DNA from: Candidatus Heimdallarchaeum aukensis
Lineage (GTDB): Archaea; Asgardarchaeota; Heimdallarchaeia; Heimdallarchaeales; Heimdallarchaeaceae
DNA: 64,000 nucleotides
Direction: 5' to 3'
Assembly: GCA_021513695.1 (NCBI GenBank)
Contig: CP084166.1
Span: forward strand, 480,001-544,000
The notes beneath the pieces were generated by a model. It made no database searches. It was not told the DNA's origin and saw nothing but the letters and a program-made list of their open reading frames with translations. Shown in pieces: positions 1 to 22,327 of this stretch. Every line of letters starts with the position of its first letter. Within the stretch, counting starts at the first letter, position 1. The translations under genes and the position numbers were made by a program.

Positions 1-2
1 TA

Positions 3-503
3 TTGAAAGGATACTTTGCTATGTGGCTGTCACAGTATCTATCTTACAATTTTGGAAATAATGACCCTTGGAGCATTTGCTTTGCAGGTATTTTTGCTAT
101 ACTTGGACATAATTGGCCAATATGGTTATTAAGTCATGGTGGAAGAGGAGTAGCAACAACTCTTGGTAATTTGATGTTTTTCAATCCTATCTTCTTTTTA
201 ATATGGCTAGCAACGTTTTTCTTACTCAGTTTTCCTCTTATGTATTCAGCTATCGTTTACATCACTAGTTTTATAGTTATGGGAGTTATTCTATACTTCT
301 GGCCCTGGTATGTAAGTCCGATGGTAACAGAACTGAAAAACGACCCCAATCTAGGTTTTTTATCAATGATAATGCTTTTCGGTATAACTCTTGTTGTTCT
401 TTCGCGTCAAAAATCTAATTTCATGAAAATAAAGAATGGTGAAGCAAAAAGAATGAAATTATGGAAAATATTCCAAGGAAAGGCAGATGAAGCCTTAAAA
501 TAA
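3..503 (+). CDS. plsY: PlsY-like glycerol-3-phosphate acyltransferase (acyl-phosphate dependent); N-terminus cut by the window edge
   Basis: The ORF is open to the left edge. GHNWPIW...GGRGVATTLG matches the PlsY signature (GH-x-[FW]-P ... GGKGVAT). The profile is hydrophobic and multi-helix throughout. Confidence 0.7.
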   Translation: MKGYFAMWLSQYLSYNFGNNDPWSICFAGIFAILGHNWPIWLLSHGGRGVATTLGNLMFFNPIFFLIWLATFFLLSFPLMYSAIVYITSFIVMGVILYFWPWYVSPMVTELKNDPNLGFLSMIMLFGITLVVLSRQKSNFMKIKNGEAKRMKLWKIFQGKADEALK

Positions 504-541
504 ATTCTTTCTTTCTTTTTCTATCTTTTTAACAATTTTTT

Positions 542-1288
542 CTATTTTAGTTCTATTAATTCAGAGGATTCTATTTCTAGCGAAAGAGTCTCTTTTTCAT
601 TTTGTATCTTTAAAAGTCCATTATCCTCAATTCCTTCTACTGTATATTCTTGATTTTTGTAGATAATATTATTTTTGCACAATATATCATAAGAATTAAA
701 TTCCTTCAAGATTTCTTTAAGATTGTTTTTTAGAACCTTGATAATATAGTTTTTAATTTGCTTATGCAATTCTTTTGTTAATTTCTCATTATCTACTTTT
801 ATTTTCAAGGATTCATTTATTGAAATAGCTATAGAATTGACTGGAGAGTCTAAAGAAAGAACTTTGTTATTTGTATTTATTCCTATTCCAACGAGTAGAA
901 AATTACAATTTGTATCTTTCACTGTATCAATTAAAATTCCGCCTAACTTTCTTTTTTCTAGAATTATATCATTTGGCCATTTAATTTTAACAGGTATAGA
1001 CAGAATTGTTTCTATTGCTTTTCTTACTCCTAAAGCAATAGAATAATGAAGAAAAGCATATTGTTTTTGATTTATTTCTTCTTTTTTACAAAAAACAAAC
1101 GTTCCCCACCAACCTCCTTTTGGAGAAAACCATTTACTCTGTTTTCTTCCAATACTTGCAGATTGTTCCTCTGCTATTATTAACAAATCTTCATTTTTTG
1201 CTAATTCTAAATAAGACAAAGCTACATTTTGAGTGGAAGGAACAGATTGAAAATGAATGATTTTCAAGGAAAAGGATTCTTGAGCCAT
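542..1288 (-). CDS. birA: Biotin-[acetyl-CoA-carboxylase] ligase (biotin protein ligase, group I, no HTH)
   Basis: GRKQSKWFSPKGG matches the GRGRxWxSPxG biotinyl-AMP loop. KIKWPNDI and VGIGINTN are also present. Length is 248 aa. Confidence 0.8.
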   Translation of the reverse strand: MAQESFSLKIIHFQSVPSTQNVALSYLELAKNEDLLIIAEEQSASIGRKQSKWFSPKGGWWGTFVFCKKEEINQKQYAFLHYSIALGVRKAIETILSIPVKIKWPNDIILEKRKLGGILIDTVKDTNCNFLLVGIGINTNNKVLSLDSPVNSIAISINESLKIKVDNEKLTKELHKQIKNYIIKVLKNNLKEILKEFNSYDILCKNNIIYKNQEYTVEGIEDNGLLKIQNEKETLSLEIESSELIELK

Positions 1289-1401
1289 TATTTTCGTCGA
1301 AAAACACTTTTATTTAAACTTTTTTTTGTTTTATCAAGATAAAATTATTTAATCATAAAAACAAATTGGGTTTTTAAAAGACCTTTTTTTCTTTAAACTT
1401 A

Positions 1402-2976
1402 ATGGCTCGTATTACTCATATTGGACATGATAAAGGAATTTTGGAAGAAAAAAGACAAACAATACTTTCACTAAGAGAAAAGTCTCTAAAAGGTGGGGGA
1501 GAGGAAAAAATAGCCAGTCAACACAATAAAGGAAAGCTTACTGCGAGAGAGAGAATAGAATTATTGGTTGACGAAAATTCTTTTTGCGAAATAGATCAAA
1601 TAAGAAAATCTCAACATTCTGAATTAGAAATGGAAAAAATAGAAGGAGACGGTGTAGTAACAGGTTATGCAACTATTAATGGTAGACGAGTCTTTATTTA
1701 TAGTCAAGATTTTACCGTTTTGGGAGGAAGTTTAGGAAAAACTCACGCAAAAAAAATTTGTAAAGTTATGGATCTTGCTCTTCAGAGTGGGTGTCCTATA
1801 ATAGGGTTACTTGACTCTGGAGGAGCAAGAATTCAAGAAGGAATAGATTCTCTAGCTGGTTATGGTGAAATATTTTATAGAAATGTAATGAGTTCAGGGG
1901 TAATTCCCCAAGTTTCTATTATTTTGGGTCCTTGTGCTGGAGGAGCGGTCTATTCTCCTGCCCTAACTGATTTTATTATTATGAATCAAATTAATTCATT
2001 TATGTTTGTTACTGGCCCTCAAGTTGTTAAGACAGTTACCGGTGAAGATGTTTCATTCTATGATTTAGGAGGAAGTGAAGTACATAGTTCACTTAGCGGA
2101 GTAAGTCATTTAGTAGGAGAAGATGAAGAGGAAACGATAAATTTAGCTAAGAGACTCTTATCTTACCTTCCATCGAACAATTTAGATGACCCTCCACAAG
2201 AAATAGATGATATCGAAGAAAATGATCAAGATATTCTTTCTGATATTATTCCTGAGCAGGAAAATGAACCTTATGATATGAAAAAAGTAGTTGAAACAGT
2301 TTTAGACCAAGACAGTTTCTTTGAATTACAAGAAAATTGGGCAAAAAACATTATTGTTGGTTTCGGAAGATTAGAAGGTTTAACTGTCGGTATTATTGCA
2401 AACCAACCTTTATTTCTTGGAGGAGCTATAGAATATAATGCTGCGGATAAAGCAGCAAGATTTATTCGTTTTTGTGATTCATTTAACATCCCTATAATTA
2501 CTTTTGTTGATGTACCTGGTTTTATGCCAGGATTAAAACAAGAGGAAGAAGGAATAATTCGTCATGGAGCTAAAATGCTTTTTGCTTATTCAGAAGCTAC
2601 TGTCCCAAAACTTGCAGTAATAACAAGAAAAGCTTATGGAGGAGCTTATATTGTTATGAGCTCAAAGCATTTAGGAGCTGATATTAATTTTGCTTGGCCT
2701 ACAGCAGAAATAGCTGTCATGGGGGCAGAGGGAGCTTGTAATATTATTTATAGAAAAGAACTGAAAAAAGCTGAAAATCCAGAACAAGCTTTGCAAGATT
2801 TTGTTGTAAAATACAAAAAACAGTTCAGCAATCCTATTCGAGCAGCTGAGAAAGGATATGTTGACAAAGTTATTTTGCCTGAAGAAACAAGAATTGAACT
2901 TTCTAATGCCTTGAAATTTTTACAAAATAAAAGGATAGATACCCCGAAAAGAAAACACGGGAATATTCCACTTTAA
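1402..2976 (+). CDS. pccB: Acyl-CoA carboxylase carboxyltransferase subunit (PccB/AccD5 type)
   Basis: 524 aa. Motifs seen: LDSGGARIQEG, GPCAGGAVYSPAL, DVPGFMPG, HGAKMLFAY, AYGGAYIVM. It has the two-halved crotonase-like carboxyltransferase layout. Confidence 0.9.
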   Translation: MARITHIGHDKGILEEKRQTILSLREKSLKGGGEEKIASQHNKGKLTARERIELLVDENSFCEIDQIRKSQHSELEMEKIEGDGVVTGYATINGRRVFIYSQDFTVLGGSLGKTHAKKICKVMDLALQSGCPIIGLLDSGGARIQEGIDSLAGYGEIFYRNVMSSGVIPQVSIILGPCAGGAVYSPALTDFIIMNQINSFMFVTGPQVVKTVTGEDVSFYDLGGSEVHSSLSGVSHLVGEDEEETINLAKRLLSYLPSNNLDDPPQEIDDIEENDQDILSDIIPEQENEPYDMKKVVETVLDQDSFFELQENWAKNIIVGFGRLEGLTVGIIANQPLFLGGAIEYNAADKAARFIRFCDSFNIPIITFVDVPGFMPGLKQEEEGIIRHGAKMLFAYSEATVPKLAVITRKAYGGAYIVMSSKHLGADINFAWPTAEIAVMGAEGACNIIYRKELKKAENPEQALQDFVVKYKKQFSNPIRAAEKGYVDKVILPEETRIELSNALKFLQNKRIDTPKRKHGNIPL

Positions 2977-2997
2977 AATTATTAAGAGGAGAATTTT

Positions 2998-5900
2998 ATG
3001 AAAACTCTAAAAGAACTAAAAAATGAACTACAAATTAAATATCCAATTTTTGGATATAATCCTATCGGACTTGCTGATCCCACGTTAGCTATTGAAATCT
3101 CCAAACTTGGAGGAGTGGGATTAATTAACACTATTGGACTTGAACAAGAAGAACTAACTAAGATTCTTGATCAATGCGAACTTAATCTACCCACACAACT
3201 ATGGGGAATAAGGATTAACGATCTTTCTCACATTAAATGGATTAATCATGAACGAAGTATTCCAATCGTTATCCTACCGGAGAAACCTACAAGATTACAA
3301 CTGGATAAACTGCGTAAAATAAGTAAATTTATTGTCGCTGAAGTTTTATTTGTTGAAGAAGCAAAAAGTCATCTTGAATGGTCAGATTTCTTTTTAGTTA
3401 AAGGTATTGAAGCAGGAGGAAAAGTTGGTACAAAAGCTTCTTTTATTCAGATTCAAGAGTTTTATGAAACTGGATGGCCTTTTATCATTCAAGGAGGAAT
3501 GGGTGCTTTTAATATTAGTTCTGCTCTAATAGGAGGAGCAATAGGAGTAGTTTTTGAGGGACAATTATATCAATTTCCTGAATGTCCTCTTTCTGAAGAA
3601 GCGAAAAAGTATCTTGCTTCTTTAGGTGAAAATGATTCTTTCATTATCAATGAAAGTGGTAAAGAAGGTTACAGAATTTCTGGAAAACTAGCTAACAAAG
3701 CAATTAGAGAAATAAAACAACTAGAAGAAGAATCAAGTGAGGAAAAAATACTTGATAGAATTACTGAATTTGAAAAACCTCACGATCAATTTGGTTTTAA
3801 GAGTCAGAACATTAAACACGCATTTTTACCACTAGGTAACGATGTTTTCTTCTCCACATTCTTCAAGAAAAGATTTGGAAATTTAACAAATTTTGTGGAG
3901 CAAGCTCTTAAGATAGCTGATGAACAAATACAGATTGCTCTAAGAAATTGGCCTTTTGCAAAAGGTTCTACTTTATCCAACTTTCTAGGTACAAAATATC
4001 CTATTATTCAAGGCCCTATGGCTAATGTTTCTGATAATGTAGACTTTGCTATTAATGTAGCGAAAAATGGAGCTCTTCCTTTCTTAGCTTTGGGTGGATT
4101 ACTAAAAGAAGAAACTGAGGAGCTTTTTGATAAAGTTAGAGAAAGTGAACTTGTAAAATATTCCTATGGTTGTGGGATTATAGGTTTAGAAGCAGTTAAA
4201 CAAAGGAGAGAAGAGCACCTTTCTTTAATGAGAGATCTTAAACCTCCCTTTGCTTTGATTGCTGCTGGAACAGTTAATTTAGCTAAACAAGTACAAGAAA
4301 TGGGTTTTAAGACTTTATTACACACTCCCGCTCTATCAATGTTTAAAGATTCTATCAAAAATGGAATAGATTTACAAATTTTAGAAGGGAGTGAATGTGG
4401 AGGACATATTGGACTTCTTTCATCTTTTATTTTATGGGAAAGTATTTTGGAATTTTTAGATGAAAATAGAGAACAGATAGAAAAACCTTTGAAAATAGCT
4501 TTTGCAGGAGGGATATCTGACGGCACTAGTTCTGCGATGCTAGCAGTTATGATTGCTAAACATCTAGATATTATAGAATCAGCAATACAGATGGGTACAT
4601 CCTACTTATTTACTGAAGAGATTCTAGAAACAAAGGCTTTAACTGGATTTTATCAAGAACTTCTTCTTAATTCTAACTACACCAGAATTATAGGCTCAAC
4701 AGTAAATACTCGAGCACGAGCTGCTCCTTCACCTTTTGTAGATCAAACAATTAAAAGAGAAAGAGAGAGAATTAGACAAAAAATACCAATAAAAGAAAGA
4801 AAAGAACTTTACGAGAAAGATAATCTAGGAGCTTTAAGAATTGCAGCTAAAGCTGAAAAATGGAATAACGATCATGTTCCTGGTACTGCAACTACACAGT
4901 TTATAAAAATCGATGAAGAGGAACAGAAAAACTTTGGTTGCTTTATGGCTGGAGAAGTAATAGCAAAGAAACGTAGTATTTACAAGATAGATGACCTACA
5001 CTATGATATTTCAGTAATTGGAAAAGAAATCTTAGAAAAGCAATCAACTTCTATTGCTGATTATTTACTTTCAAAAGAAAAACTAGAAGCTTATGTTTCT
5101 AAAGAACAAAGTCCTCTAGTTATAGATAGTACTAATAAAATTGCTATAGTAGGAATAGGTAGTTTCTTCCCTGATGCTCCAAACACAGAAAAATTCTGGG
5201 AAAATATTGTTAACAAACATTATGCTGTAACTGAAGTACCTATTGAAAGATGGGATCCTAAATATTATTATGACGAAGATCGAACCGCTCCAGACAAGAC
5301 TTATACCAAAATTGGAGCGTTTGTAAAAGAATTTAAATTTAAACCTATTCAATTCAAGATTCCTCCTAAAGTAGCTGAAAAGATGGATGAAGTTCAGAAA
5401 TGGTCATTAATTGCTGCAAAAGAAGCTTTAGAAGATGCTGGAATACCCACAGATGGCAAGAAACGCCTACCTATAGGAGTAATTGTAGGCAATGCTTTAG
5501 GTGGAGAAAATCAGAGAATTACTAACAGGAGATTACACTATCCAGAAATTGAAGAACAACTAAAAATTTTATTAAGCTCAAAATTGTCTGATGAGGAAGT
5601 AGAAAAGTTTGTTTCTTCTTTCAAGAAAGAATATCTCAGTAAATACGCAGAGATTACAGAGGATACTATGCCTGGAGAATTATCTAATGTTGTTGCGGGA
5701 AGAATAGCCAATATATTCAATTTATCTGGTAAATCAATGACAACAGATGCTGCATGTGCTTCTTCTCTTGCTGCTCTGGACATTGCGGTAAAAAGTTTGT
5801 TGAATAACGATTTTGATACTATTCTTGTTGGCGGAGCAGATAGATCTATGGATGTTTCTTCTTATGTTAAATTCAGTAAGATCGGTGCTCTTTCTGCAAC

Positions 5901-7518
5901 TGGTTCTCGACCTTTTGATTCCAAGGCAGACGGTTTTGTAATGGGAGAAGGATGTGGTTTTCTTGTCTTGAAGAAATTGAAAAAAGCTATTGAAGACAAT
6001 GACAAAATTTATGCCATAATTGATTCTGTTGGTTCTTCCTCTGATGGTAAAGGAAAAGGAATTACTGCTCCTAATCCTTTAGGACAAAAAGAAGCTATTG
6101 AAAGAGCTCTTGAACAAGCTAAAGTTTCTCCTTCTGAGATAGATTTAATTGAAGCACATGGAACTTCCACCATAGTAGGAGATAAAACAGAAGTTCAAGT
6201 TTTAAATGAGATTTTCACAGAAAAACAAAAAGAAAGAAAAAGGAAAATAGCTCTTGGTTCAATTAAAAGCCAAATTGGTCATTTAAAGAGCGCAGCAGGT
6301 ATAGCTTCTGTTATAAAAGTAGCTTTAGCTCTTGACAAGAAAATTCTTCCACCAACGATAAATGTTCAAGAACTTAATCCTGCGATTGATTGGAATAATT
6401 CTAATCTTTTTGTTAATCTTGATGCTCAACCATGGGAAAAGGTTGATAACTCTATCAGAAGAGCAGGAGTTTCTGCTTTTGGTTTTGGAGGAACAAATTA
6501 TCATACAATCTTGGAAGAATATATTCCAGAAGCACAGTACATAGAAAAAGAAAAGCAACCAATAGTTGAACTAAAAGAACAAAAAGAAGAAGTTTGCTTC
6601 CTTTATACTGGACAAGGAAGTCAATATTTAGGCATGATAAAGGAACTTTATGATAATTATCCAACTGTTAGAAAAACAATAGATGAAGCTTCAGTTATTG
6701 CTAAAGAGAGTTTAAATGCTGATTTGCGTGAAATAATTTTTGGTTCACCTCAACTTTCCAAAGTTGAAAATGAGGAAAGATTAAGACAAACAGAATACAC
6801 TCAACCTTCTCTCTTTGTAGTCGAAGTTGCTTTAACTAGATTATTGAAAGAAAAAGGAATTGAGCCTACAAGAGTAGCTGGACATAGTTTAGGAGAATAT
6901 ACTGCTTTAGTTGCTGCGGGAGTGTTCTCTTTTGAAGATGGATTAAAAGCTGTAATAGAAAGAGGAAAAGCGATGGCAAAAGCTTCTAAAAGTATCCCTG
7001 GAGCAATGGCAGCTATTCTTACATCTCAAGAAAAAGTTAAGGAAATTATAGAAAAGGTAAATGAAGGTTATATAACAGTAGCCAATTATAACTCATTAAA
7101 CCAAACAGTGATTTCGGGAGAAGAAAAAGCTGTAAACAAAGCTATAGAACTTTTCTCTGCAAGAAAAATAAAAGCAATAAAATTAAATGTTTCAACAGCT
7201 TTTCATTCTATTATTGTTAAAGATGCAGAAATAGAAATGGAGAGAGTGCTTAACAGCCTGACTTACAATAAACCTTCAATTCCTGTCTATTCAAATGTAA
7301 CGGGAAGTTTGTACCCTGACAAACCCTCTAAAATTAAAGAACTTCTAATTAATCAGCTCTGTAATTCTGTTCAATGGGTTAAGATTTCAGAAATGGTCAT
7401 TAATTGCTGCAAAAGAAGCTTTAGAAGATGCTGGAATACCCACAGATGGCAAGAAACGCCTACCTATAGGAGTAATTGTAGGCAATGCTTTAGGTGGAGA
7501 AAATCAGAGAATTACTAA
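2998..7518 (+). CDS. Type I PUFA-synthase/PKS-like megasynthase, part 1 (ER-like, ER, KS, AT); 3' end is an out-of-frame read into a tandem duplication
   Basis: ATG 2998 lies 5 nt after a GAGGAGA SD. aa 14-245 form an NMO/FabK-like barrel with KGIEAGGKVG, where a Lys codon (3421-3423) sits where His is usual. aa 332-665 form a PfaD/FabK-type enoyl reductase (YPIIQGPMANVS, LEGSECGGHIG, His codon 4405-4407). aa 714-1170 form a ketosynthase (IAIVGIGSFFPDAP, TTDAACASS with Cys codon 5755-5757, EAHGTST, SQIGHLKSAAG). This is followed by a malonyl/acyl transferase (FLYTGQGSQY, GHSLGEY with Ser codon 6886-6888, AFHS). The last ~44 codons (from 7386) are frame-shifted KS sequence. Confidence 0.85.
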   Translation: MKTLKELKNELQIKYPIFGYNPIGLADPTLAIEISKLGGVGLINTIGLEQEELTKILDQCELNLPTQLWGIRINDLSHIKWINHERSIPIVILPEKPTRLQLDKLRKISKFIVAEVLFVEEAKSHLEWSDFFLVKGIEAGGKVGTKASFIQIQEFYETGWPFIIQGGMGAFNISSALIGGAIGVVFEGQLYQFPECPLSEEAKKYLASLGENDSFIINESGKEGYRISGKLANKAIREIKQLEEESSEEKILDRITEFEKPHDQFGFKSQNIKHAFLPLGNDVFFSTFFKKRFGNLTNFVEQALKIADEQIQIALRNWPFAKGSTLSNFLGTKYPIIQGPMANVSDNVDFAINVAKNGALPFLALGGLLKEETEELFDKVRESELVKYSYGCGIIGLEAVKQRREEHLSLMRDLKPPFALIAAGTVNLAKQVQEMGFKTLLHTPALSMFKDSIKNGIDLQILEGSECGGHIGLLSSFILWESILEFLDENREQIEKPLKIAFAGGISDGTSSAMLAVMIAKHLDIIESAIQMGTSYLFTEEILETKALTGFYQELLLNSNYTRIIGSTVNTRARAAPSPFVDQTIKRERERIRQKIPIKERKELYEKDNLGALRIAAKAEKWNNDHVPGTATTQFIKIDEEEQKNFGCFMAGEVIAKKRSIYKIDDLHYDISVIGKEILEKQSTSIADYLLSKEKLEAYVSKEQSPLVIDSTNKIAIVGIGSFFPDAPNTEKFWENIVNKHYAVTEVPIERWDPKYYYDEDRTAPDKTYTKIGAFVKEFKFKPIQFKIPPKVAEKMDEVQKWSLIAAKEALEDAGIPTDGKKRLPIGVIVGNALGGENQRITNRRLHYPEIEEQLKILLSSKLSDEEVEKFVSSFKKEYLSKYAEITEDTMPGELSNVVAGRIANIFNLSGKSMTTDAACASSLAALDIAVKSLLNNDFDTILVGGADRSMDVSSYVKFSKIGALSATGSRPFDSKADGFVMGEGCGFLVLKKLKKAIEDNDKIYAIIDSVGSSSDGKGKGITAPNPLGQKEAIERALEQAKVSPSEIDLIEAHGTSTIVGDKTEVQVLNEIFTEKQKERKRKIALGSIKSQIGHLKSAAGIASVIKVALALDKKILPPTINVQELNPAIDWNNSNLFVNLDAQPWEKVDNSIRRAGVSAFGFGGTNYHTILEEYIPEAQYIEKEKQPIVELKEQKEEVCFLYTGQGSQYLGMIKELYDNYPTVRKTIDEASVIAKESLNADLREIIFGSPQLSKVENEERLRQTEYTQPSLFVVEVALTRLLKEKGIEPTRVAGHSLGEYTALVAAGVFSFEDGLKAVIERGKAMAKASKSIPGAMAAILTSQEKVKEIIEKVNEGYITVANYNSLNQTVISGEEKAVNKAIELFSARKIKAIKLNVSTAFHSIIVKDAEIEMERVLNSLTYNKPSIPVYSNVTGSLYPDKPSKIKELLINQLCNSVQWVKISEMVINCCKRSFRRCWNTHRWQETPTYRSNCRQCFRWRKSENY

Positions 7519-9378
7519 CAGGAGATTACACTATCCAGAAATTGAAGAACAACTAAAAATTTTATTAAGCTCAAAATTGTCTGATGAGGAAGTAGAAAAG
7601 TTTGTTTCTTCTTTCAAGAAAGAATATCTCAGTAAATACGCAGAGATTACAGAGGATACTATGCCTGGAGAATTATCTAATGTTGTTGCGGGAAGAATAG
7701 CCAATATATTCAATTTATCTGGTAAATCAATGACAACAGATGCTGCATGTGCTTCTTCTCTTGCTGCTCTGGACATTGCGGTAAAAAGTTTGTTGAATAA
7801 CGATTTTGATACTATTCTTGTTGGCGGAGCAGATAGATCTATGGATGTTTCTTCTTATGTTAAATTCAGTAAGATCGGTGCTCTTTCTGCAACTGGTTCT
7901 CGACCTTTTGATTCCAAGGCAGACGGTTTTGTAATGGGAGAAGGATGTGGTTTTCTTGTCTTGAAGAAATTGAAAAAAGCTATTGAAGACAATGACAAAA
8001 TTTATGCCATAATTGATTCTGTTGGTTCTTCCTCTGATGGTAAAGGAAAAGGAATTACTGCTCCTAATCCTTTAGGACAAAAAGAAGCTATTGAAAGAGC
8101 TCTTGAACAAGCTAAAGTTTCTCCTTCTGAGATAGATTTAATTGAAGCACATGGAACTTCCACCATAGTAGGAGATAAAACAGAAGTTCAAGTTTTAAAT
8201 GAGATTTTCACAGAAAAACAAAAAGAAAGAAAAAGGAAAATAGCTCTTGGTTCAATTAAAAGCCAAATTGGTCATTTAAAGAGCGCAGCAGGTATAGCTT
8301 CTGTTATAAAAGTAGCTTTAGCTCTTGACAAGAAAATTCTTCCACCAACGATAAATGTTCAAGAACTTAATCCTGCGATTGATTGGAATAATTCTAATCT
8401 TTTTGTTAATCTTGATGCTCAACCATGGGAAAAGGTTGATAACTCTATCAGAAGAGCAGGAGTTTCTGCTTTTGGTTTTGGAGGAACAAATTATCATACA
8501 ATCTTGGAAGAATATATTCCAGAAGCACAGTACATAGAAAAAGAAAAGCAACCAATAGTTGAACTAAAAGAACAAAAAGAAGAAGTTTGCTTCCTTTATA
8601 CTGGACAAGGAAGTCAATATTTAGGCATGATAAAGGAACTTTATGATAATTATCCAACTGTTAGAAAAACAATAGATGAAGCTTCAGTTATTGCTAAAGA
8701 GAGTTTAAATGCTGATTTGCGTGAAATAATTTTTGGTTCACCTCAACTTTCCAAAGTTGAAAATGAGGAAAGATTAAGACAAACAGAATACACTCAACCT
8801 TCTCTCTTTGTAGTCGAAGTTGCTTTAACTAGATTATTGAAAGAAAAAGGAATTGAGCCTACAAGAGTAGCTGGACATAGTTTAGGAGAATATACTGCTT
8901 TAGTTGCTGCGGGAGTGTTCTCTTTTGAAGATGGATTAAAAGCTGTAATAGAAAGAGGAAAAGCGATGGCAAAAGCTTCTAAAAGTATCCCTGGAGCAAT
9001 GGCAGCTATTCTTACATCTCAAGAAAAAGTTAAGGAAATTATAGAAAAGGTAAATGAAGGTTATATAACAGTAGCCAATTATAACTCATTAAACCAAACA
9101 GTGATTTCGGGAGAAGAAAAAGCTGTAAACAAAGCTATAGAACTTTTCTCTGCAAGAAAAATAAAAGCAATAAAATTAAATGTTTCAACAGCTTTTCATT
9201 CTATTATTGTTAAAGATGCAGAAATAGAAATGGAGAGAGTGCTTAACAGCCTGACTTACAATAAACCTTCAATTCCTGTCTATTCAAATGTAACGGGAAG
9301 TTTGTACCCTGACAAACCCTCTAAAATTAAAGAACTTCTAATTAATCAGCTCTGTAATTCTGTTCAATGGGTTAAGAT
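5393..9378. repeat. Head-to-tail tandem duplication, 2 x 1,993 bp (copy 1 5393-7385, copy 2 7386-9378), inside the synthase KS-AT region
   Basis: All shadow ORFs recur at an offset of exactly 1,993 with identical translations (5538-5783 vs 7531-7776; 6325-6558 vs 8318-8551; 6362-6544 vs 8355-8537; 6455-6664 vs 8448-8657). About 600 aa of the main frame are identical between copies. The junction reads gttaagat|ttcagaaatgg. 1,993 is not a multiple of 3. Confidence 0.95.
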
Positions 9379-12300
9379 AATTGAAGAGATGTATAACGAT
9401 GGAGGAAGAATTTTTGTAGAAGTAGGACCTAAAAAAGCATTGTACAACTTTGTTAAAGATATTTTAGGTGAAAAAGAAGACATTCAAACTTTTCTTACAT
9501 TAAACCCGAAAGTAGGAGAGTTAAAATCTTTTAATGATACTGTCTCTAAATTAAAAATGAGCAAAAGAAGAGAAACCGAAACCCCAGTTCAAACTAAAGA
9601 AAAAATAGTTTACAAAGAATCAGCACTAGATGTTTTACTTAAAAATAAAGAGATTAACAACTTGGTCTCTAAACCCTATTTCCGTGAGTATTTGAAAGAG
9701 AACAGCAATCTTCTTTCATCTATAATGAAACAAGGTTACGAGCAGTTCTCAAAGTACAGAGAATCATTGGTTATTGCTGAAAAAGCTAAATATTGGGATA
9801 TAAACTTTGATCTTATTGGTGTTACTGGTGTTGGAATTGGTCTCCCAGGAAAGAATAGAGCTGTTTTCTCTGATGATAATTTTGATCTTATTCTCAATGG
9901 AACAAATCTTATCGAATCTGTTGAAGATACAATAAAACAAGAAACTTTAGACAAAAACATCGTTAGGTTAGTTAAATCTCCTGATGGTAATGCAACTTTT
10001 GAAGCAATTGACGATATAAGTAAAGTTATTCAACTTGCAGCACAGATAGGAGAATTAAACTTCAAAGAATTAGGTATAGAAGATAAATTGGCTAAAGCTT
10101 TAGACTCCACTTTTATTATGGCTATAGGTGCAGGACTAGAAGCGTTGAAAGATGCTGGTATTCCTCTTGTTGAAAGCAAAATAGTTACTTCAACTGGAAA
10201 AACTTTGAAAGGGAGCTGGACTTTACCAGAATCCTTACAACATGATACTGGAATAGTTTTTGCTTCTGCTTTTCCCGGATATGATAATTTAGTAGATGAA
10301 GTAACAAGACATCTTGTAGCTAAATTTGAAAACAAAACTAATAAAGAGATTGAGGAGATATTTGAGCAATTAATTAATGTTGTATCAAACCCTGAAGCAA
10401 AAGAAGAGATCTCTAACTGGTTCTTGGAGAAACAATCTCTACTGGAAGAAAAAGAAGAAAAGTATACTTTTAGTAGAGAGTTCCTTTACAAAGTTTTGTC
10501 TATGGGGCACTCTCAATTTGCCCAATTTATTAAAGCTAAAGGTCCGAATACTCAAGTCAATGCTGCTTGTGCTTCTACAACCCAAGCAATTGGTGTAGCA
10601 GAAGATTGGATAAGAACTGGAAGATGTAAGAGAGTAATAGTAATAGCTGGAGACAATGCTGCAAGCAAGAATCTGTTACCTTGGATAGGTGGGGGATTCT
10701 TAGCAGCTGGGGGAGTAACCACAAAAGCCGATGTTAAAGAAGCTGCTTTACCTTTTGGAAAAGAAAGACATGGATTAATTATAGGTTCAGCTTCTGCAGG
10801 TCTTGTAATTGAAAGCAGAGAATCCTATGAAGAAAGAGGAGTTAAACCAATAGTAGACCTTGTGGGTACTTATATGGCAAATAGTGCTTATCATGGTTCT
10901 AGATTAGATGTCAACCATATTTCTGAAGAACTTGAAAGCTTTATTGAAAAAGTAGAAAGAAGATATAATATCGACAGGAAAAATATCGCTAAAGAAGGTA
11001 TTTTTGTCTCTCATGAAACTTATACACCTGCAAGAGGAGGAAGTGCAGAAGCAGAAATTCAATCACTTCTTAATGTTTTCAAAGAAGATGCTTATTCTAT
11101 GACCATAATAAACACAAAAGGATTTACAGGTCATTCAATGGGTGCAGGAATAGAAGAAGCTGTAGCTATTAAAGCAATAGAAAAAGGTAAGATTCCTCCA
11201 ATTGCTAACATAGAGAAACTTGACCCTGCCTTTTCTAAATTTAAGTTCTCAAAAGGAGAAAAGAGAAGATTTTCCTTCGCTTTGAGATTAGCAGCTGGAT
11301 TTGGGTCACAATTAGCTTTTGCTCTCTTCAGGTTAAATACTTACGACAACAGATTCTCTGCCCAATACAATGAATGGCTCAAGAGTCTTGGTGGTGGCAA
11401 AGAAGAGTTATTTGTTGAAGGCAGAGTACTTAAACTCAAAACAGATAATAAGAAAAAACAAGCTGATTTAGTTAAGAAACCAGCAGTACAAAAAACTGTT
11501 GAAAAGAAAATTAAAACTGTTACAAAAGCACCTACAGATATTCTTCAAGTTGTAAAAGATATTATTTCTGAAAAAACAGGTTATGAAACAGAAGTCATTG
11601 AAGAAAATATGCATTTAGAAGAAGATCTTGGGATTGACAGTATTAAAGCAGCAGAAATAATGAACGATATTAGCGATAAATGGTCAATACCTCAAGAAAA
11701 ACTCTTCGAACAATTTGATATCGATACACCAGGAAAAATTGCAAAGTTCATTTCTGAAAACACAAGCGCTCCTGAAGAGACAAGTTATTCAGTTGAAACA
11801 ACTGTAGCAAAAGAGGAAGTAAAAAGAGCAGAAACTTCTAGTGTTTCAACAGGAGATATTTTAGTGCGAATTAAAGAAGTAATTGGAAAACACACAGGTT
11901 ATGACATTCAAGATCTAGATGAAAACTATGACCTAGAAGAAGATCTGGGAATAGATACAGTAAAACAAGCAGAAATTTTTGGAGATTTAAGAGATTTATT
12001 CGGATTGGATTTAGATGAGACTTATGCTTTAGCAGATTATCGAACAATAGCTGACATTGCCCAAGCAATATCTACAGAGAAACCAGTGGAAAAGGTTAAA
12101 CAAGTGGAAACTGAAGAAAGCGGAGAGATTAGAACAGCACAACAACCAACAATCATATCTGAAGCTGAAAGTTCAATTTCCAGAGAAGAAGTTACAAAAG
12201 AAGTGCTTTCAATTATCTCAGAAATTACAGGATACGATACAGAAGATATAGAAATAGAGATGGATCTAGAGGAAGATTTGGGTGTTGATAGTATCAAGAT

Positions 12301-15300
12301 TGCTGAAATTCTAAGCTCTTTGGGAAGTAAGTTCGACCTTGAATTTGATGAGATGTCTGATCTTTCAGGAATTAGAAATACAGAAGATATAGTGGAAGCA
12401 GTGATAAAAATTAAGCAATCCATTGAACAAACTCAAACCCCAACCAAAACAGAAGAACAATTAGCTGTAAGTCAAAAACTTAAAGTTGAACAAGAAGAAG
12501 AAATAGTTATTCGTAGTGTAGAACCTGTTCTAAAGCCTTTAGAACAAAGTGAAGTAAATAAATTTAATCTAGAAGATAAAAATCTCTTACTTCTAGATAT
12601 TCATTCAAAAGAAGCCAAATATATCTATTCTTTACTTGAACAGAAGAAGGCTAAAATTGAGCTTGTTAGGATTAATTCTGAAGACTCAGAAAAACCAAAT
12701 AATAATAAATATGACTTAATCTTAATCTTATTACCAGATGATCACAATTCTGCAAATGATACTAAATACTTTGAGCAACTATTTCTTACCCTACAACAGC
12801 TAGAGTACAATCATAATACTAAGATTGTTTCTTACTCTGTTGAAGACTATTTAGACTCTAAAAAGGAGATAATTCCTTTAAGTGGAGGTATATCCGCTTT
12901 TGTTAAGACTATTGGTCAAGAATTTGAACTAGACATTAAACATGTTTATTCCACAAAACCTGAAGAACTAGTTACAGAGTTGGAAAATTGGGATAAAAAC
13001 CTTGAAGTTATTTATTCAGAGGGTAAAAGATACATTTTCAGTCACATGAGAAAAATACCTCTAGAACAATTACAAAAAGAAAAAATCGAACTTACAGAAG
13101 ATGATCTTATACTTGTTACTGGAGGAGCAAGAGGTATCACTTATGAATGTATTAAAGAACTTACAAAAGATGCTAAACCTTCAATTGCTATCGTTGGTAG
13201 AACTAAACTTCCAGAAGATGTATCTGAATTGCTCTTCTTAACCGACAAAGAAATAGCAAACAAAAAAGAAGAGATAAAAGAAAAACTTGCTCAAGAAAAT
13301 GAAAAAGTTACTCCAGTGATGATAGAAAAAGCTTGGAAACGCTTCCTAAACACTGTTGAAATTGCAAAGAATATTCTCTATTTAATTGAAAATGAAGTGA
13401 ATGCTAACTATTATTCTGCAGATGTTTCAGATGAAGAACAAATGAAAAGTGTTTTGAGTCAAATTGAAGAAGATTTCGAAAAAACTATAACTCTTATTGT
13501 ACATGGTGCGGGAATAGAAGAATCTAAAGCTTTCAAGAAAAAGAAACTAGAAATGGCAAAGAAAATAGTACAAGTAAAGATTTCAGGGTTATACAATATT
13601 CTAAATAATATAGATCAATCTAATTTGAAGAAGATCATCTGCTTTAGCTCAATTGCAGGAAGATTTGGTAATAGAGGACAAGTGGATTATGCTTTTGCAA
13701 ATGGTTATCTAGCTAGAACATGCTGGAAGTTTAAACAACAAGGAATTAACGCTCTAGCTATAGATTGGTCAGCTTGGGCAGATATAGGCATGGCAACACA
13801 AGGTTCTATTCTTAAAGTGCTGAAAGCTGCAGGAATAACTCCCATTCCATTAAAAGAAGGAATAAGAATATTTTCTGAACTAACCAATTACAATGTAGAA
13901 CAAAGTGAATTAATAGTTGCAGGAAAACTTGGACTTCTTCTAAAAGAAATAGAAGATAAAAAAACAAGTGGTCAACACGATACTAGTATGAACACAGAGA
14001 GTTATCCAATGATTGATGAAATTAGAAAAACAGACAACGGTTTTATTGCTTCAAAGACACTAAAATATGATTATGACTTATACATGAGAGATCATCAAAT
14101 CCAAGGATTGCCAATATTTCCTGCAGTAATGGGATTAGAATTCTTCGCTGAGATGTTCAAACTTACAACAGAAAAAGATGTTTACGCAATAGCAGAAGTA
14201 TCGTTTAGAGAAGCAATTAAACAGTTTAAGAACAAAAATGTTGAACTTCAATGTTCATTTGATACAGAAAGAGGGGATATGGAAATTAAAACAATCTTTA
14301 CAGACATTAAAGGAGTTCAAAAAGAAAAGAAACACTTCTTCTGTAAGTCTGTAAAAGATACGACAGAAAAAAGCTATAAGAAAAAGAAGATAGAAAAAAG
14401 AGTGATACCACTACTTTCCAAAGAAGTGATCTATCAGCTTTTCTTCCATGGTCCAAGTTTTCAAGTTTTGGAGAATTTGAATGAGATAAAAGGAAATATC
14501 ATCTCCACTAATGTCCAGATTCCAAATCTGCCTTTATTCAAAGATGAAGAATTGAAAACTATTCTCGTTCCTCGAGCAATAGAAGCGGCTTTACAGACAG
14601 CAGGGTTGTATGACATGTTCATTAACAATGTTGTTTCATTGCCATCAAAAATAAAAAACTTGGAAGTATACAAGGAAACAGAAGCTGTTTTTGCTGAAGC
14701 TGAATTCCTAAAGATAGAGGAAAGACATAGTTTCTTCAATGTAAAGATTTACGATGCTGAAGGAGAAGTAATAATGGTTTTAGAACAACTAGGAATGATA
14801 CATACTTCTATGCCCATAAATTTGGACGAAAAAGGAAAGAAACTCTTCCAGATGATTAAAGGATATCATGAAATAAGAACAAAAGTAGATGACGAAAAAG
14901 TAGCTGTTTTACCTATTCACAAAGTAGTAGAAGAATACAGAAAAAATAGACAAGAACTAGAAAATAAACTAGTTGCTTACGAAAAAACAAGATTTACTAA
15001 AATATCCAACGAAAAAAGAAAAATGGAATATTTAGCGGGAGTAATCCTTGCTAAAGAACTTTTTTCCAAATATGAAAACATTACCGATTTCAGAAGTATA
15101 GAAATAAAAAAGAAGAGTAAGGGGCAACCTTACTTTTTCAACAGACAACTAAAAGAAGAAACGGATTGGTATGTTTCTATTAGTCATTCAAATGATTTCG
15201 CTGTAGTCTCTATTGAGAAACAACCAGTAGGAATAGACATAGAAAAAGTAGAAGAAAGAAGTAAAAGTTTCTATGGCGAAGTTTTTTCAGATTATGAATT

Positions 15301-15538: not shown

Positions 15539-15572
15539 TATGGAGATTAAAAAAAAAAAAAGGTGATAATAT

Positions 15573-16334
15573 ATGTTACAACTGAATTATGATATAAAAT
15601 TTAGAAAGGATTTCATTCATGGAATTCTTTATTTGCCGGATGAAGAGGGGCAGTTCCCTTTAGTTATAAGATTGAACGGTTTTCCGGGCAATTCTCCAGA
15701 AAAAGAAGAACAAAGATTAGCAGATATTATCACCCAGAATAATATGGCTTTTTATGCCTTTGACTATGTAGGAGTAAGAAAAAGTACAGGGACATTTAAT
15801 TATTATACGAGTTTGGAAAACATAAATACTGTTATAACAGATTTATCACATCATCCTCGAATTAATCCTGCAAAGATTGCTCTTCTTGGAGAAAGCTTCG
15901 GAGGAGCAATGGCAATAAGCCAAGGAGTAAGAGACCAAAGAATAAAATGTATTGTTTTAAGGTCTCCTGTATATGATACTGAAGTTATTCCTCAAATACC
16001 GTCTTTTAATACTTTAGTTAAAATATGGTCCAGAAACAATCAAATACGTTTCCCTAAAGGAGACATAAGTGAATTATACTACAAACAAACTAATCTTTAC
16101 AATCCTAAAAAAATAGCAAATTTAGTTAATTGCCCCGTAAAATTGATTGCAGGAGATAAAGATGAGTTGTTGGAAGTTAAGGGTTTTAGAGAACTTTACA
16201 AATGTTTACCACGGAAACTAAGAAAAGGAATTGATATCATTAAAGGAGCAGATCATAACTTTACTAAACAAAAACAGTTTATAGAATTAAAGAGTGAACT
16301 TTCCAGCTTTTTGACTTGTTGCCTTTTAGGGTAA
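15573..16334 (+). CDS. Alpha/beta-fold hydrolase (dienelactone hydrolase / BAAT-type thioesterase-like)
   Basis: GESFGG forms a GxSxG nucleophile elbow. Downstream AGDKDELL supplies the Asp and GADHNF the His. An AGGTGAT SD lies 6 nt before the ATG. Length is 253 aa. Confidence 0.75.
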   Translation: MLQLNYDIKFRKDFIHGILYLPDEEGQFPLVIRLNGFPGNSPEKEEQRLADIITQNNMAFYAFDYVGVRKSTGTFNYYTSLENINTVITDLSHHPRINPAKIALLGESFGGAMAISQGVRDQRIKCIVLRSPVYDTEVIPQIPSFNTLVKIWSRNNQIRFPKGDISELYYKQTNLYNPKKIANLVNCPVKLIAGDKDELLEVKGFRELYKCLPRKLRKGIDIIKGADHNFTKQKQFIELKSELSSFLTCCLLG

Positions 16335-16355
16335 ATAACTTATGGAGTGCAAAAG

Positions 16356-16838
16356 ATGAAGAAAAAAATAATCTACAACAATGAAGAATACATAATAGAA
16401 GCTAAAGGAGAAGACGAGATAGTAGTGAATAATAAGACTTTCAAAGTTAACTTAAAAGAGAAAAACAAGAATTTTTTCAATATAGAAATTCAAGGAAAGA
16501 AGTTTATTATAGAAGTAAGAGAAGGAGAATTCTATTTAGACGGAGAGAAAATAGAAAAATTATCAATTAGCCCCTATTTTCCACAATTAAAGAAACAAAA
16601 ACAAATGATTAACTCTCAAAAAGAAGTAGTAAAAGCACCTATACCAGGAACTATAACTCAAATACTAGTTAAAGAAGGAGATACAGTAAAAAAAGACCAA
16701 GAATTATTTATCCTTGAAGCGATGAAAATGAGAAATAGAATCTTAACAACCATTGACAAAGGTGTAGTAAAAAAAATCTACGTTAGCGAGAATGAAACTG
16801 TATCTCAAGATCAAAAACTAGCTATAATTGAAAATTAA
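16356..16838 (+). CDS. accB: Biotin carboxyl carrier protein (archaeal AccB-type, biotinyl domain)
   Basis: The C-terminal biotinyl domain carries the EAMKM motif (ILEAMKMRNRI). A GGAGTG SD lies 6 nt before ATG 16356, whereas the ORF caller started at GTG 16347. Its size of about 160 aa resembles archaeal AccB. Confidence 0.8.
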   Translation: MKKKIIYNNEEYIIEAKGEDEIVVNNKTFKVNLKEKNKNFFNIEIQGKKFIIEVREGEFYLDGEKIEKLSISPYFPQLKKQKQMINSQKEVVKAPIPGTITQILVKEGDTVKKDQELFILEAMKMRNRILTTIDKGVVKKIYVSENETVSQDQKLAIIEN

Positions 16839-17073
16839 ATAAAAAAATAACAAAACAAATTTATTGCAAAAATAATTTAAAATTCGCACAAATATTTGGA
16901 TACTTCTTCTTTTTTAAATTCAAATTTTATCAAAAACTTGAAAAGAATGCTAAATAGTCTATTTTTTAAATAAATAGGAAACAAAAAAAGTTTAGACTAA
17001 GTGGTTAGTTTTTGAAGTATAAATGAGGAGAAATAGGAACTGTATAATTTAAAGAAGAATAAAAAAAATAGGA

Positions 17074-17661: not shown

Positions 17662-17679
17662 TTTATCAAAAGCTTCTTT

Positions 17680-22325: not shown

Positions 22326-22327
22326 AT

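What the first reader, a model, noticed from the sequence alone, without database searches (positions are those of the whole stretch)
3..503. PlsY-type (bacterial-style) glycerol-3-phosphate acyltransferase in an archaeal neighbourhood
Seen: the partial ORF carries the PlsY signature GHNWPIW...GGRGVATTLG and is hydrophobic throughout. Established: PlsY transfers acyl groups from acyl-phosphate to sn-glycerol-3-phosphate in bacterial ester-lipid synthesis, whereas archaeal membranes are normally isoprenoid ethers on glycerol-1-phosphate. Inference: with the synthase cluster starting 2.5 kb downstream, it may mark a capacity for acyl-ester lipids. PlsX (acyl-phosphate supply) and PlsC are not in the window.
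Basis: partly seen in the sequence, partly recalled or inferred. Interest (0 to 1): 0.5.

Follow-up and report, generated by a model that had tools for sequence, protein, structure and literature searches.

The report
Divergent PlsY-like acyltransferase in Heimdallarchaeum
The partial gene is a real PlsY-family membrane protein of the Asgard archaeon Ca. Heimdallarchaeum aukensis, already annotated and discussed in the literature, but it belongs to a Heimdall-only subfamily that lacks two substrate-contact residues of bacterial PlsY, so its role in ester-lipid synthesis is unproven.

Summary
Observation confirmed. Window 1-503 (+) holds the last 166 codons of a 242-codon gene. The fragment scores 67 bits on Pfam PF02660 and the full gene 118 bits (cut-off 24.1). 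The AF2 model (pLDDT 92) matches only PlsY structures in the PDB.

The host is archaeal. The protein is 100% identical to the 'glycerol-3-phosphate acyltransferase' of Ca. Heimdallarchaeum aukensis.

Interpretation partly supported:
- PlsY homologues in Asgard archaea have been published since 2017, with function still called unknown in 2022-2026 papers.
- This protein and all 69 relatives in its two Heimdallarchaeia clades fail the NCBIfam PlsY equivalog cut-off wherever tested (99-124 bits against 137.2; bacterial controls 152-181).
- They carry T41R and H177Q. H177Q leaves 1% activity in Aquifex PlsY. The phosphate clamp and phosphate hole are retained.
- The link to the synthase is weak. 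The genes converge, the adjacency exists only in genus Heimdallarchaeum, and the same BirA-carboxyltransferase-synthase cluster occurs without PlsY in another Asgard MAG.
- No PlsX, PlsC or GpsA is in the window. The literature reports none, or no PlsC, for these archaea, while a G1P-dehydrogenase-type gene is present.

Most likely it is a PlsY-type phosphate-activated acyl transferase with altered, untested substrate specificity. Interest is low to moderate.

The parts
1..503 (+). 3' part (166 codons plus TAA at 501-503) of a 242-codon PlsY-family gene. The first 76 codons lie upstream of the window.
   Evidence: PF02660, E=2.3e-18. The full gene from L001 10786-11514(-) and L016 340-1068 is identical over the overlap. 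100% identical to P0001, Ca. H. aukensis.
105..119 (+). GHNWP. His112 (nt 108-110) is the equivalent of aaPlsY His92, the side chain of the acyl-phosphate 'phosphate hole'. It is conserved.
   Evidence: Role of His92 from PMC5700162.
135..158 (+). HGGRGVAT, equivalent to loop 3 (G102-A107 in aaPlsY). Arg124 (nt 144-146) replaces Lys104 of the G3P phosphate clamp. The clade has either K or R here.
   Evidence: K104R keeps 25% activity in aaPlsY.
258..260 (+). Tyr162, invariant in the clade. It is possibly the equivalent of aaPlsY Ser142 (a G3P 2-OH ligand), but this depends on the alignment.
   Evidence: MAFFT and hhalign place Y162 at S142. phmmer places S158 there. Invariance.
402..443 (+). 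SRQKSNFMKIKNGE, equivalent to PlsY motif 3 (aaPlsY 176-189, RHxxNIxRLxxGxE). Gln212 (nt 408-410) replaces His177. Asn215 (nt 417-419) keeps Asn180. Lys218 replaces Arg183.
   Evidence: H177Q gives 1.0% activity in aaPlsY.
444..500 (+). Clade-specific C-terminal tail AKRMKLWKIFQGKADEALK (K231 and E239 invariant). It is absent from bacterial PlsY and modelled as short helices with lower confidence.
542..1288 (-). Context, not part of the gene: a biotin-protein ligase (BirA-like), convergent with the PlsY-like gene across a 38-nt gap. It is the first gene of the carboxylase/synthase cluster.
   Evidence: The same BirA-CT-synthase order occurs without PlsY in L019.
1402..16838 (+). Context: carboxyltransferase (1402-2976); an ArsA-like type I fatty-acid/polyketide megasynthase (2998-15538) with domains NMO/ER, KS, AT, KS-like, ACPs, KR, DH, PPTase; an alpha/beta hydrolase (15573-16334); and a biotin carrier (16347-16838). 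The megasynthase ORF is broken in the window by an exact 1,993-bp tandem duplication.

Best explanation
Shown: nt 1-503 encode the C-terminal two thirds of a 242-aa, seven-helix PlsY-fold membrane protein (Pfam PF02660) of Ca. Heimdallarchaeum aukensis. It belongs to a small subfamily found only in records named Heimdallarchaeota, Heimdallarchaeaceae, Kariarchaeaceae or Asgard group. The subfamily has at least two paralogous clades, and both are present in this genome. The subfamily keeps the bacterial PlsY phosphate clamp (S35, R45, K/R104, N180 in aaPlsY numbering), N37, and the phosphate hole (H92 plus the GG[KR]G loop). It invariably has Arg for Thr41 (the acyl-carbonyl ligand) and Gln for His177 (the glycerol 2-OH ligand), probably Tyr for Ser142, and an extra conserved C-terminal tail. 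Inferred: because both phosphate-binding sites are kept, it most likely still performs PlsY-type substrate-assisted transfer. In that reaction an acyl group moves from a phosphate-activated donor to a hydroxyl of a small phosphorylated alcohol at the cytoplasmic face of the membrane, and phosphate is released. The changed 2-OH and carbonyl ligands argue that the acceptor and/or donor differ from the bacterial pair of acyl-phosphate and sn-glycerol-3-phosphate. It is a stand-alone gene and not part of the neighbouring fatty-acid-synthase operon. It does not by itself show a bacterial-type ester-phospholipid pathway.
For: Family and fold: PF02660 at 117.7 bits over profile 1-163 of 164. phmmer to PDB 5XJ5 gives E=5e-14. 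The AF2 model has pLDDT 92 and pTM 0.88. Foldseek finds only PlsY 5xj5-5xj8 as significant, with target-normalised TM 0.74-0.77. hhalign of clade against canonical PlsY gives probability 100%.

Residues: all 69 clade members share S35, N37, R41, N42, R45, H92, GG[KR]G and Q177, and all but one (P0005) N180; 16 canonical hits have T41/S142/H177. Invariant columns are listed.

Subfamily boundary: TIGR00023 scores 98.6-124.4 bits for seven clade members, against 151.9-180.9 for four canonical controls; the cut-off is 137.2. A clade profile searched against 1.84 billion representatives scored 334 and 293 bits, then 161 and 152, then 147 and below (fragments and other PF02660 proteins). Only 13 hits reach E<=1e-30, out of 17,826 family hits.

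Taxonomy and paralogy: every member that carries a source organism name is named Heimdall, Kariarchaeaceae or Asgard (most members carry none). A second paralogue, P0141, is in the same H. aukensis genome, and P0022 and P0043 come from one MAG.

Stand-alone gene: it is convergent with BirA. The neighbourhood is not conserved.

Residue roles and mutant activities come from PMC5700162.
Against: No member of this subfamily has been assayed, so any activity is inference. Arg at position 41 occurs in about 3% of PlsY homologues and also alongside His177 in other lineages (P0154, P0169), so T41R alone may be neutral. K104R is tolerated in aaPlsY (25% activity). The assignment of Tyr162 to Ser142 depends on the alignment. 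Monophyly of the clade has only moderate support in my crude neighbour-joining bootstraps (21-22 of 40-50 replicates). Gene neighbourhoods give no positive functional clue. No source of acyl-phosphate is known in these archaea.
Confidence: 0.6

Rival explanations
1. One reading: a functional bacterial-type PlsY (acyl-phosphate:sn-glycerol-3-phosphate acyltransferase). It would take fatty acyl chains made by the adjacent megasynthase and start ester-phospholipid synthesis in this archaeon.
For: PF02660 membership and the PlsY fold. The phosphate clamp and phosphate hole are intact. An ArsA-like type I fatty acid synthase with carboxylase subunits starts 0.9-2.5 kb downstream. NCBI already names the protein 'glycerol-3-phosphate acyltransferase'. 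K104R and natural R41 variants are compatible with activity.
Against: It scores below the PlsY equivalog cut-off, as does the whole clade. The H177Q substitution leaves 1% activity in aaPlsY. The adjacency is confined to one genus, the orientation is convergent, and the synthase cluster elsewhere lacks PlsY. No PlsX, PlsC or GpsA is in the window. Surveys found no archaeal PlsX and no Asgard GpsA, and Heimdallarchaeum lacks PlsC. The only lipid analysis of a cultured Asgard archaeon cited in the papers read found only archaeal lipids (cited).
Confidence: 0.15
2. An acyltransferase adapted to the archaeal backbone. It would acylate sn-glycerol-1-phosphate, or a G1P-based lyso-ether lipid, giving ester or mixed ether/ester lipids on the archaeal stereo-backbone.
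For: The residues that read the glycerol C2 hydroxyl in aaPlsY are the ones replaced (H177Q, probably S142Y), while the phosphate clamp is kept. Heimdallarchaeum encodes a G1P-dehydrogenase-type protein, and no GpsA is reported in Asgard. Bacterial PlsY already accepts G1P in vitro (PMC13400652). A type I FAS is present in the genome.
Against: This is purely inferential: there is no docking, no assay and no lipid data. The acyl-phosphate source is unknown. The S142 equivalence is uncertain. Conserved neighbours are not lipid genes (aminotransferase and an Eis-like acetyltransferase for clade 1; PGM/PMM and FBP aldolase for clade 2).
Confidence: 0.15
3. A PlsY-fold protein recruited to a non-lipid or non-acyl reaction, such as transfer from another phosphate-activated donor to another phospho-alcohol. 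Alternatively, a catalytically impaired membrane protein.
For: Other PF02660 lineages clearly depart from the PlsY active site (for example the T35/Q37/G41/R177/A180 group). NCBIfam names several of these only 'membrane protein'. There are two to three paralogues per Heimdall genome with non-lipid neighbourhoods. Coleman et al. judged archaeal PlsY/PlsC unlikely to act in membrane lipid synthesis.
Against: Nearly the whole canonical catalytic constellation is invariant in the clade (S35, N37, N42, R45, H92, GGxG, N180), which indicates purifying selection on a PlsY-like active site. The predicted fold matches PlsY over essentially the whole length of the solved chain (target-normalised TM 0.74-0.77).
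Confidence: 0.1

Closest known systems
Aquifex aeolicus PlsY (aaPlsY; PDB 5XJ5-5XJ9, 7CQM), the structurally and mutationally characterised acyl-phosphate:G3P acyltransferase
   Same: Same Pfam family. The model shows the same seven-helix fold (target-normalised TM about 0.75, about 25% identity). The same residues are kept at S35, N37, N42, R45, H92, the G102-G105 loop, N180 and G187.
   Different: T41 is Arg, K104 is Arg, H177 is Gln, R183 is Lys and E189 is Ala. S142 is probably Tyr. There is a 9-residue insertion after motif 1 and a conserved C-terminal tail of about 20 residues. It scores below the PlsY equivalog cut-off. Its activity is untested.
Canonical bacterial PlsY of the PlsX/PlsY/PlsC pathway (e.g. 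Bacillus subtilis, Streptococcus pneumoniae; NCBIfam TIGR00023)
   Same: Homologous over the full length (TIGR00023 E=5e-36). The motif architecture is the same: GSxNxGxxN ... DxxKG ... GHxxP ... GGxG ... RxxxNxxxxxxG.
   Different: It fails the curated cut-off (124.4 against 137.2), while bacterial hits in the same search score 152-181. The partner genes plsX and plsC are not in the window and are reported absent from these archaea.
PlsY homologues of Asgard archaea already reported (Villanueva 2017; Coleman 2019, PMC6431249; Manoharan 2019, PMC6737245; Wu 2022, PMC8813620)
   Same: This is one of them. It is the annotated 'glycerol-3-phosphate acyltransferase' of Ca. H. aukensis PM71. It is an orphan PlsY without PlsX, and its function is called unresolved.
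   Different: None of the papers I could read mention the clade-wide R41/Q177 signature, the failure of the equivalog threshold, or the two paralogues per Heimdallarchaeum genome. Villanueva 2017 itself is not held in the library.
Other non-canonical PF02660 lineages, including the NCBIfam PRK144xx 'membrane protein' models and the Chloroflexota-type T35/Q37/G41/R177 group
   Same: They share the PlsY fold family and depart from the canonical substrate-binding residues.
   Different: Different substitutions. The Heimdall clade keeps S35, N37 and N180, which those groups lose. Scores to the PRK144xx models are far below their cut-offs.

Membership tests
Pfam PF02660 (G3P_acyltransf / PlsY superfamily) | Score above the Pfam gathering threshold over the full profile | tested here: met
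   Fragment: 67.3 bits. Full length: 117.7 bits over profile 1-163 of 164. Cut-off 24.1.
Pfam PF02660 (G3P_acyltransf / PlsY superfamily) | Seven-transmembrane-helix PlsY fold | tested here: met
   The AF2 model has pLDDT 92 and pTM 0.88. Foldseek against the PDB finds only 5xj5-5xj8 as significant (E 3e-9 to 3e-8, TMt 0.74-0.77). This is a predicted model, not a solved structure.
PlsY sensu stricto (NCBIfam TIGR00023 equivalog: acyl-phosphate:G3P 1-O-acyltransferase) | Score at or above the curated equivalog cut-off (137.2 bits) | tested here: not met
   124.4 bits. Six other clade members score 98.6-114.1. Four canonical bacterial controls score 151.9-180.9.
PlsY sensu stricto | G3P phosphate clamp: Ser35, Arg45, Lys104, Asn180 (aaPlsY numbering) | tested here: met
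   S42, R52, R124 (Lys to Arg; K or R in the clade) and N215 align to these positions. K104R keeps 25% activity in aaPlsY.
PlsY sensu stricto | Acyl-phosphate 'phosphate hole': His92 plus the G102-G103-x-G105 loop | tested here: met
   GH112NWP and HG122G123RG125 are invariant in the clade.
PlsY sensu stricto | Thr41 (or Ser), which hydrogen-bonds the acyl carbonyl | tested here: not met
   Arg48 in all 69 clade members. T41A gives 4.75% activity. R occurs in 3% of homologues.
PlsY sensu stricto | His177, which binds the G3P 2-OH ('indispensable' in aaPlsY and spPlsY) | tested here: not met
   Gln212 in all 69 clade members. H177Q gives 1.0% activity in aaPlsY. His is 91.4% conserved.
PlsY sensu stricto | Ser142 (or Ala), the second 2-OH ligand | tested here: inconclusive
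   MAFFT and hhalign align the invariant Tyr162 here. phmmer aligns Ser158. The position is only 53% Ser in the family.
Bacterial PlsX/PlsY/PlsC ester-phospholipid pathway | Presence of PlsX (or FakAB) as acyl-phosphate source, PlsC, and a G3P dehydrogenase in the genome | not testable with these tools
   None is present among the window ORFs scanned with Pfam. The rest of the genome could not be searched. The literature reports no archaeal PlsX or PlsB and no Asgard GpsA, no PlsC in either Heimdallarchaeum, and a G1PDH-type gene present.
Bacterial PlsX/PlsY/PlsC ester-phospholipid pathway | Conserved genetic linkage with fatty-acid or lipid genes | tested here: not met
   The gene is adjacent to the FAS cluster only in Heimdallarchaeum (L001, L002, L016) and is convergent with BirA. 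Orthologues elsewhere sit next to an aminotransferase, an acetyltransferase and a peptidase. The FAS cluster in L019 has no PlsY.
PlsY sensu stricto | Acyl-phosphate-dependent acylation of G3P, measured experimentally | not testable with these tools
   I found no assay of any Asgard PlsY homologue. Reviews state that the function remains to be elucidated.

The most novel reading that the evidence does not exclude
The R41/Q177 PlsY-like proteins of Heimdallarchaeia may be a functionally distinct enzyme class. They would be acyltransferases re-tuned at the glycerol C2-hydroxyl and acyl-carbonyl ligands to acylate the archaeal backbone (sn-glycerol-1-phosphate or a G1P ether lysolipid). The acyl chains would come from the Asgard ArsA-like type I fatty acid synthase. 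That would give the closest archaeal relatives of eukaryotes a route to ester or mixed ether/ester lipids without PlsX, PlsC or G3P.
Probability: 0.2. Interest if true: 0.75.

Novelty: already known. Interest (0 to 1): 0.3.

Why it matters
How the fatty-acid ester membranes of eukaryotes arose from an archaeal host with isoprenoid ether membranes is an open question. Bacterial-type lipid genes in Asgard archaea are one of the few leads. This gene is one of those already published leads, so finding it adds little.

What my analysis adds is a caution and a test. The Heimdall proteins are not plain PlsY orthologues: they score below the equivalog threshold and carry T41R and H177Q. They should therefore not be counted as evidence for a G3P ester-lipid pathway until assayed.

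The substitutions lie at the positions that read the acyl carbonyl and the glycerol stereocentre. A simple in vitro comparison (G1P against G3P, wild type against Q212H/R48T) would show whether these archaea acylate their own backbone.

Tried and rejected
- **Bacterial contamination or misbinning:** rejected. The protein is 100% identical to one on the 3.08-Mb circular H. aukensis chromosome and 98% identical to one in H. endolithica. GC content is about 32%, like the rest of the window. The flanking genes are Asgard-type.
- **Conserved operon with the synthase:** rejected. The equal contig length of 38,321 bp for P0035 and P0324 suggested they shared a contig, but they come from different assemblies.
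- **Genomic-context inference of function:** led nowhere. Clade-1 neighbours are an aminotransferase, an Eis-like acetyltransferase with SCP2, and a peptidase S9. Clade-2 neighbours are PGM/PMM, FBP aldolase/FBPase, AAA_18 and OapB. None are lipid genes.
- **Phylogeny:** my neighbour-joining bootstraps are weak, and the first attempt timed out. No maximum-likelihood software was available. I rely on the sequence signature, the C-terminal tail and the profile-score gaps rather than on the tree.
- **S142Y as a third substitution:** downgraded, because phmmer and hhalign/MAFFT disagree by four residues.
- **Supplementary files of Wu et al. 2022:** a search for plsX, plsY, plsC or KEGG ids found nothing beyond the G1PDH remark. 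Villanueva 2017 is not held.
- **Rfam and tRNA scans of the window:** empty.
- **Cluster names for other non-canonical hits:** only a Pacearchaeota variant turned up.
Full report
**The observation**

The frame beginning at nt 3 is open to the TAA at 501-503. The 166-residue fragment matches Pfam PF02660 (G3P_acyltransf) at E=2.3e-18, 67.3 bits against a gathering score of 24.1, over profile positions 54-163 of 164. It is therefore a real C-terminal fragment of a PlsY-family protein and not a chance motif.

The TTG at nt 3 is not a start codon. The gene continues off the left edge of the window.

I looked up the neighbouring BirA-like protein and obtained an independent Logan contig (L001, later L016). 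That contig is 100% identical to window 1-7385 and carries the complete 242-codon gene. The full protein matches PF02660 end to end at 117.7 bits.

**The organism**

A scan of one genome per species found the gene at 98% identity in the complete chromosome of Ca. Heimdallarchaeum endolithica PR6. It also found the gene at 59-62% identity in six other Heimdallarchaeota MAGs.

The protein database holds an identical sequence named 'glycerol-3-phosphate acyltransferase [Candidatus Heimdallarchaeum aukensis]' on a 3,081,793-bp contig. That contig is the circular PM71 genome of Wu et al. 2022 (PMC8813620).

The rest of the window agrees with this origin: archaeal Nre, Arf- and Ras-family small GTPases, an archaeal-type ATPase_2/TPR regulator, and about 31% GC throughout. 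The 'archaeal neighbourhood' is correct, and contamination can be excluded.

**What is already known**

PlsY homologues in Asgard archaea are established in the literature:
- Coleman et al. 2019 list PlsC and PlsY in Heimdallarchaeota LC_2, Lokiarchaeum and a Thorarchaeote. They found no archaeal PlsX or PlsB and no Asgard GpsA. They judged it unlikely that these genes work in membrane lipid synthesis (PMC6431249).
- Manoharan et al. 2019 discuss the same genes in Loki- and Thorarchaeota.
- Wu et al. 2022 tabulate ester-lipid genes for this very genome and note that both Heimdallarchaeum species lack PlsC. Their supplement states that Heimdallarchaeum encodes the G1P-dehydrogenase-related PF13685 protein.
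- A 2022 review and a 2026 paper both say the function of the Asgard PlsY homologues is unresolved. The 2026 paper also shows that bacterial PlsY accepts G1P as well as G3P.

The finding as stated is therefore not new.

**Is it a PlsY in the strict sense?**

The NCBIfam equivalog model TIGR00023 gives 124.4 bits, below its curated cut-off of 137.2. This is a property of the lineage and not of this one sequence. Six other members score 98.6-114.1 bits. Four canonical bacterial proteins retrieved in the same searches score 151.9-180.9 bits.

I aligned all retrieved homologues with Aquifex aeolicus PlsY, whose substrate complexes and roughly 60 point mutants are published (PMC5700162). The results were confirmed by profile-profile alignment at probability 100%.

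Residues kept in all 69 members of the two Heimdall clades:
- Ser35, Arg45, Lys/Arg104 and Asn180, which form the G3P phosphate clamp (Asn180 is missing in one member, P0005)
- Asn37 and Asn42
- His92 and the GG[KR]G loop, which form the phosphate hole for acyl-phosphate

Residues replaced in all 69 members:
- Thr41 by Arg. In aaPlsY this residue hydrogen-bonds the acyl carbonyl, and T41A has 4.75% activity.
- His177 by Gln. In aaPlsY this residue binds the glycerol 2-OH, and H177Q has 1.0% activity.

Ser142, the second 2-OH ligand, aligns with an invariant Tyr in MAFFT and hhalign. It aligns with a Ser four residues earlier in phmmer, so I treat that position as unresolved.

Arg at position 41 occurs in about 3% of all PlsY homologues and also alongside His177 in other lineages. 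It may therefore be tolerated. Gln at 177 is the more telling change.

The clade also has a conserved C-terminal tail of about 20 residues (...GEAKKMKLWKIFxGKxxEALK) that bacterial PlsY lacks.

**Fold**

An AlphaFold2 model built on 62 clade sequences is confident (mean pLDDT 92, pTM 0.88). In the PDB it matches only the PlsY structures 5xj5-5xj8 (E 3e-9 to 3e-8, target-normalised TM 0.74-0.77, about 25% identity).

**Extent of the subfamily**

I searched a profile of the clade against 1.84 billion representative proteins:
- 17,826 family members were found at E<=0.001, but only 13 at E<=1e-30.
- Scores fall from 334 and 293 bits (the two main clades) to 161 and 152 bits. Those two further R/Y/Q-signature proteins include one from Kariarchaeaceae/Heimdallarchaeota.
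- Below that are clade fragments (147-137 bits) and a continuum of other PF02660 proteins from 139 bits down.

Every source name attached to a member is Heimdallarchaeota, Heimdallarchaeaceae, Kariarchaeaceae or 'Asgard group'.

The two main clades are paralogues. H. aukensis and H. endolithica each carry a second copy (P0141 and P0142; 235 aa; about 30% identical). One other MAG holds both P0022 and P0043.

My neighbour-joining bootstraps support monophyly only moderately. This is in line with the poor resolution reported for PlsY trees.

**Link to the synthase cluster**

Downstream lie the following genes:
- a biotin ligase (542-1288, minus strand)
- a carboxyltransferase (1402-2976)
- a megasynthase with NMO/ER, KS, AT, KS-like, ACP, KR, DH and PPTase domains (2998-15538)
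- a hydrolase and a biotin carrier
- a biotin carboxylase further on, at 35862-37442

The megasynthase's closest relatives (45-55% identity) are in other Asgard MAGs. Next come bacterial proteins, among them ones annotated 'type I fatty acid synthase ArsA', at about 33-37%. The genome therefore plausibly makes fatty acyl chains.

The PlsY-like gene is not part of that unit:
- It converges on the biotin ligase across a 38-nt gap.
- The adjacency exists only in the two Heimdallarchaeum species.
- Orthologues at 56-62% identity sit next to a convergent class I/II aminotransferase, an Eis-like acetyltransferase and a peptidase. In Heimdallarchaeum that aminotransferase has moved about 7.5 kb away.
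- The same cluster (BirA, CT, synthase, hydrolase, BCCP, BC) in another Asgard MAG is flanked by a thiolase, not PlsY.
- The second paralogue has a conserved neighbourhood that is not lipid-related.

No PlsX, PlsC, GpsA, G1PDH or fatty-acid-kinase domain occurs among the window ORFs I scanned. I could not search the rest of the genome.

**Mechanism**

Shown: PlsY family, PlsY fold, both phosphate-binding sites intact, and the carbonyl and 2-OH ligands replaced.

Inferred: the protein most likely still performs PlsY-type substrate-assisted transfer. A phosphate-activated acyl donor sits in the phosphate hole. A small phospho-alcohol is held by the clamp, and its hydroxyl attacks the donor.

The replaced ligands suggest a different acceptor stereochemistry or a different donor head group from the bacterial pair. 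G1P is the obvious candidate acceptor. The organism has a G1PDH-type gene, no G3P dehydrogenase has been reported in Asgard, and bacterial PlsY already tolerates G1P. This remains a hypothesis. The supply of acyl-phosphate is an unsolved problem for every acyl-transfer reading.

**Verdict**

The protein is a PlsY-family member in an archaeon beside a fatty-acid synthase. It is not demonstrably a G3P acyltransferase, it is not genetically coupled to the synthase, and it has no known pathway partners.
- The object is already annotated and discussed in print, so I rate it 'already known' with low to moderate interest.
- I did not see the clade-wide R41/Q177 signature or the equivalog failure described in the papers available to me. 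They define a cheap and decisive experiment.

Noticed in passing
window 5393-7385 and 7386-9378: An exact 1,993-bp tandem duplication lies inside the megasynthase gene. It splits the gene into two ORFs (2998-7518 and 7577-15538). The independent Logan contig L001 and the H. endolithica chromosome (L002) have a single copy and an uninterrupted gene of more than 3,344 aa. It is likely an assembly artefact or a very recent duplication.
   Followed up: partly
window 14992-17692 and 17688-20388: A second tandem duplication of about 2.7 kb at 99.9% identity. It repeats the PPTase end of the megasynthase, the alpha/beta hydrolase, the biotin-carrier gene and part of a Csm6-like gene (17074-17661 against 19770-20999).
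   Followed up: partly
window 542-16838 and 35862-37442; L019 7340-23252: An ArsA-like type I fatty-acid/polyketide megasynthase (ER, KS, AT, KS-like, ACPs, KR, DH, PPTase) with its own BirA, carboxyltransferase, BCCP, biotin carboxylase and a hydrolase. The gene order is conserved in another Asgard MAG, and the closest homologues (45-55%) carry Heimdall, Loki, Thor or Promethearchaeota names. I found no paper in the library describing it. It may deserve its own evaluation.
   Followed up: partly
window 19770-27569 (minus strand): A type III-B CRISPR-Cas effector module (Cmr2/Cas10, Cmr3, three RAMP proteins) plus a Csm6 HEPN ribonuclease. In the window it sits between the biotin carrier and the biotin carboxylase of the synthase cluster. 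In L019 those two genes are adjacent, so this may be an insertion into the cluster.
   Followed up: no
P0141 / L015 10001-10708 (elsewhere in the same H. aukensis genome): A second PlsY-like paralogue (235 aa, about 30% identical, same R41/Q177 signature). Its neighbourhood is conserved across Heimdall MAGs: FBP aldolase, FBPase, PGM/PMM, PlsY-like, AAA_18 kinase-like, OapB, GTPase, then CofC and CofD.
   Followed up: partly
window 48400-49512, 51373-52479, 57404-58516; 53960-54523 and 59001-59561: Three ORFs of about 370 aa with a hydrophobic N-terminal half, similar-looking by eye (not aligned) and without any Pfam hit. They are interspersed with an Arf-family and a Ras-family small GTPase (Asgard 'eukaryotic signature' proteins).
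   Followed up: no
window 34532-34921 and 50614-51312: One transposase/integrase remnant with weak rve hits (50614-51312) and, at 34532-34921, an ORF with no Pfam hit that looks transposase-like by eye. They suggest mobile-element activity in this region.
   Followed up: no
L001 11534-11541 (upstream of the window): TTTAAATA lies 20-27 nt upstream of the ATG of the PlsY-like gene. This is compatible with an archaeal TATA box and a leaderless or short-leader mRNA, but such strings are common in a genome with 31% GC.
   Followed up: no
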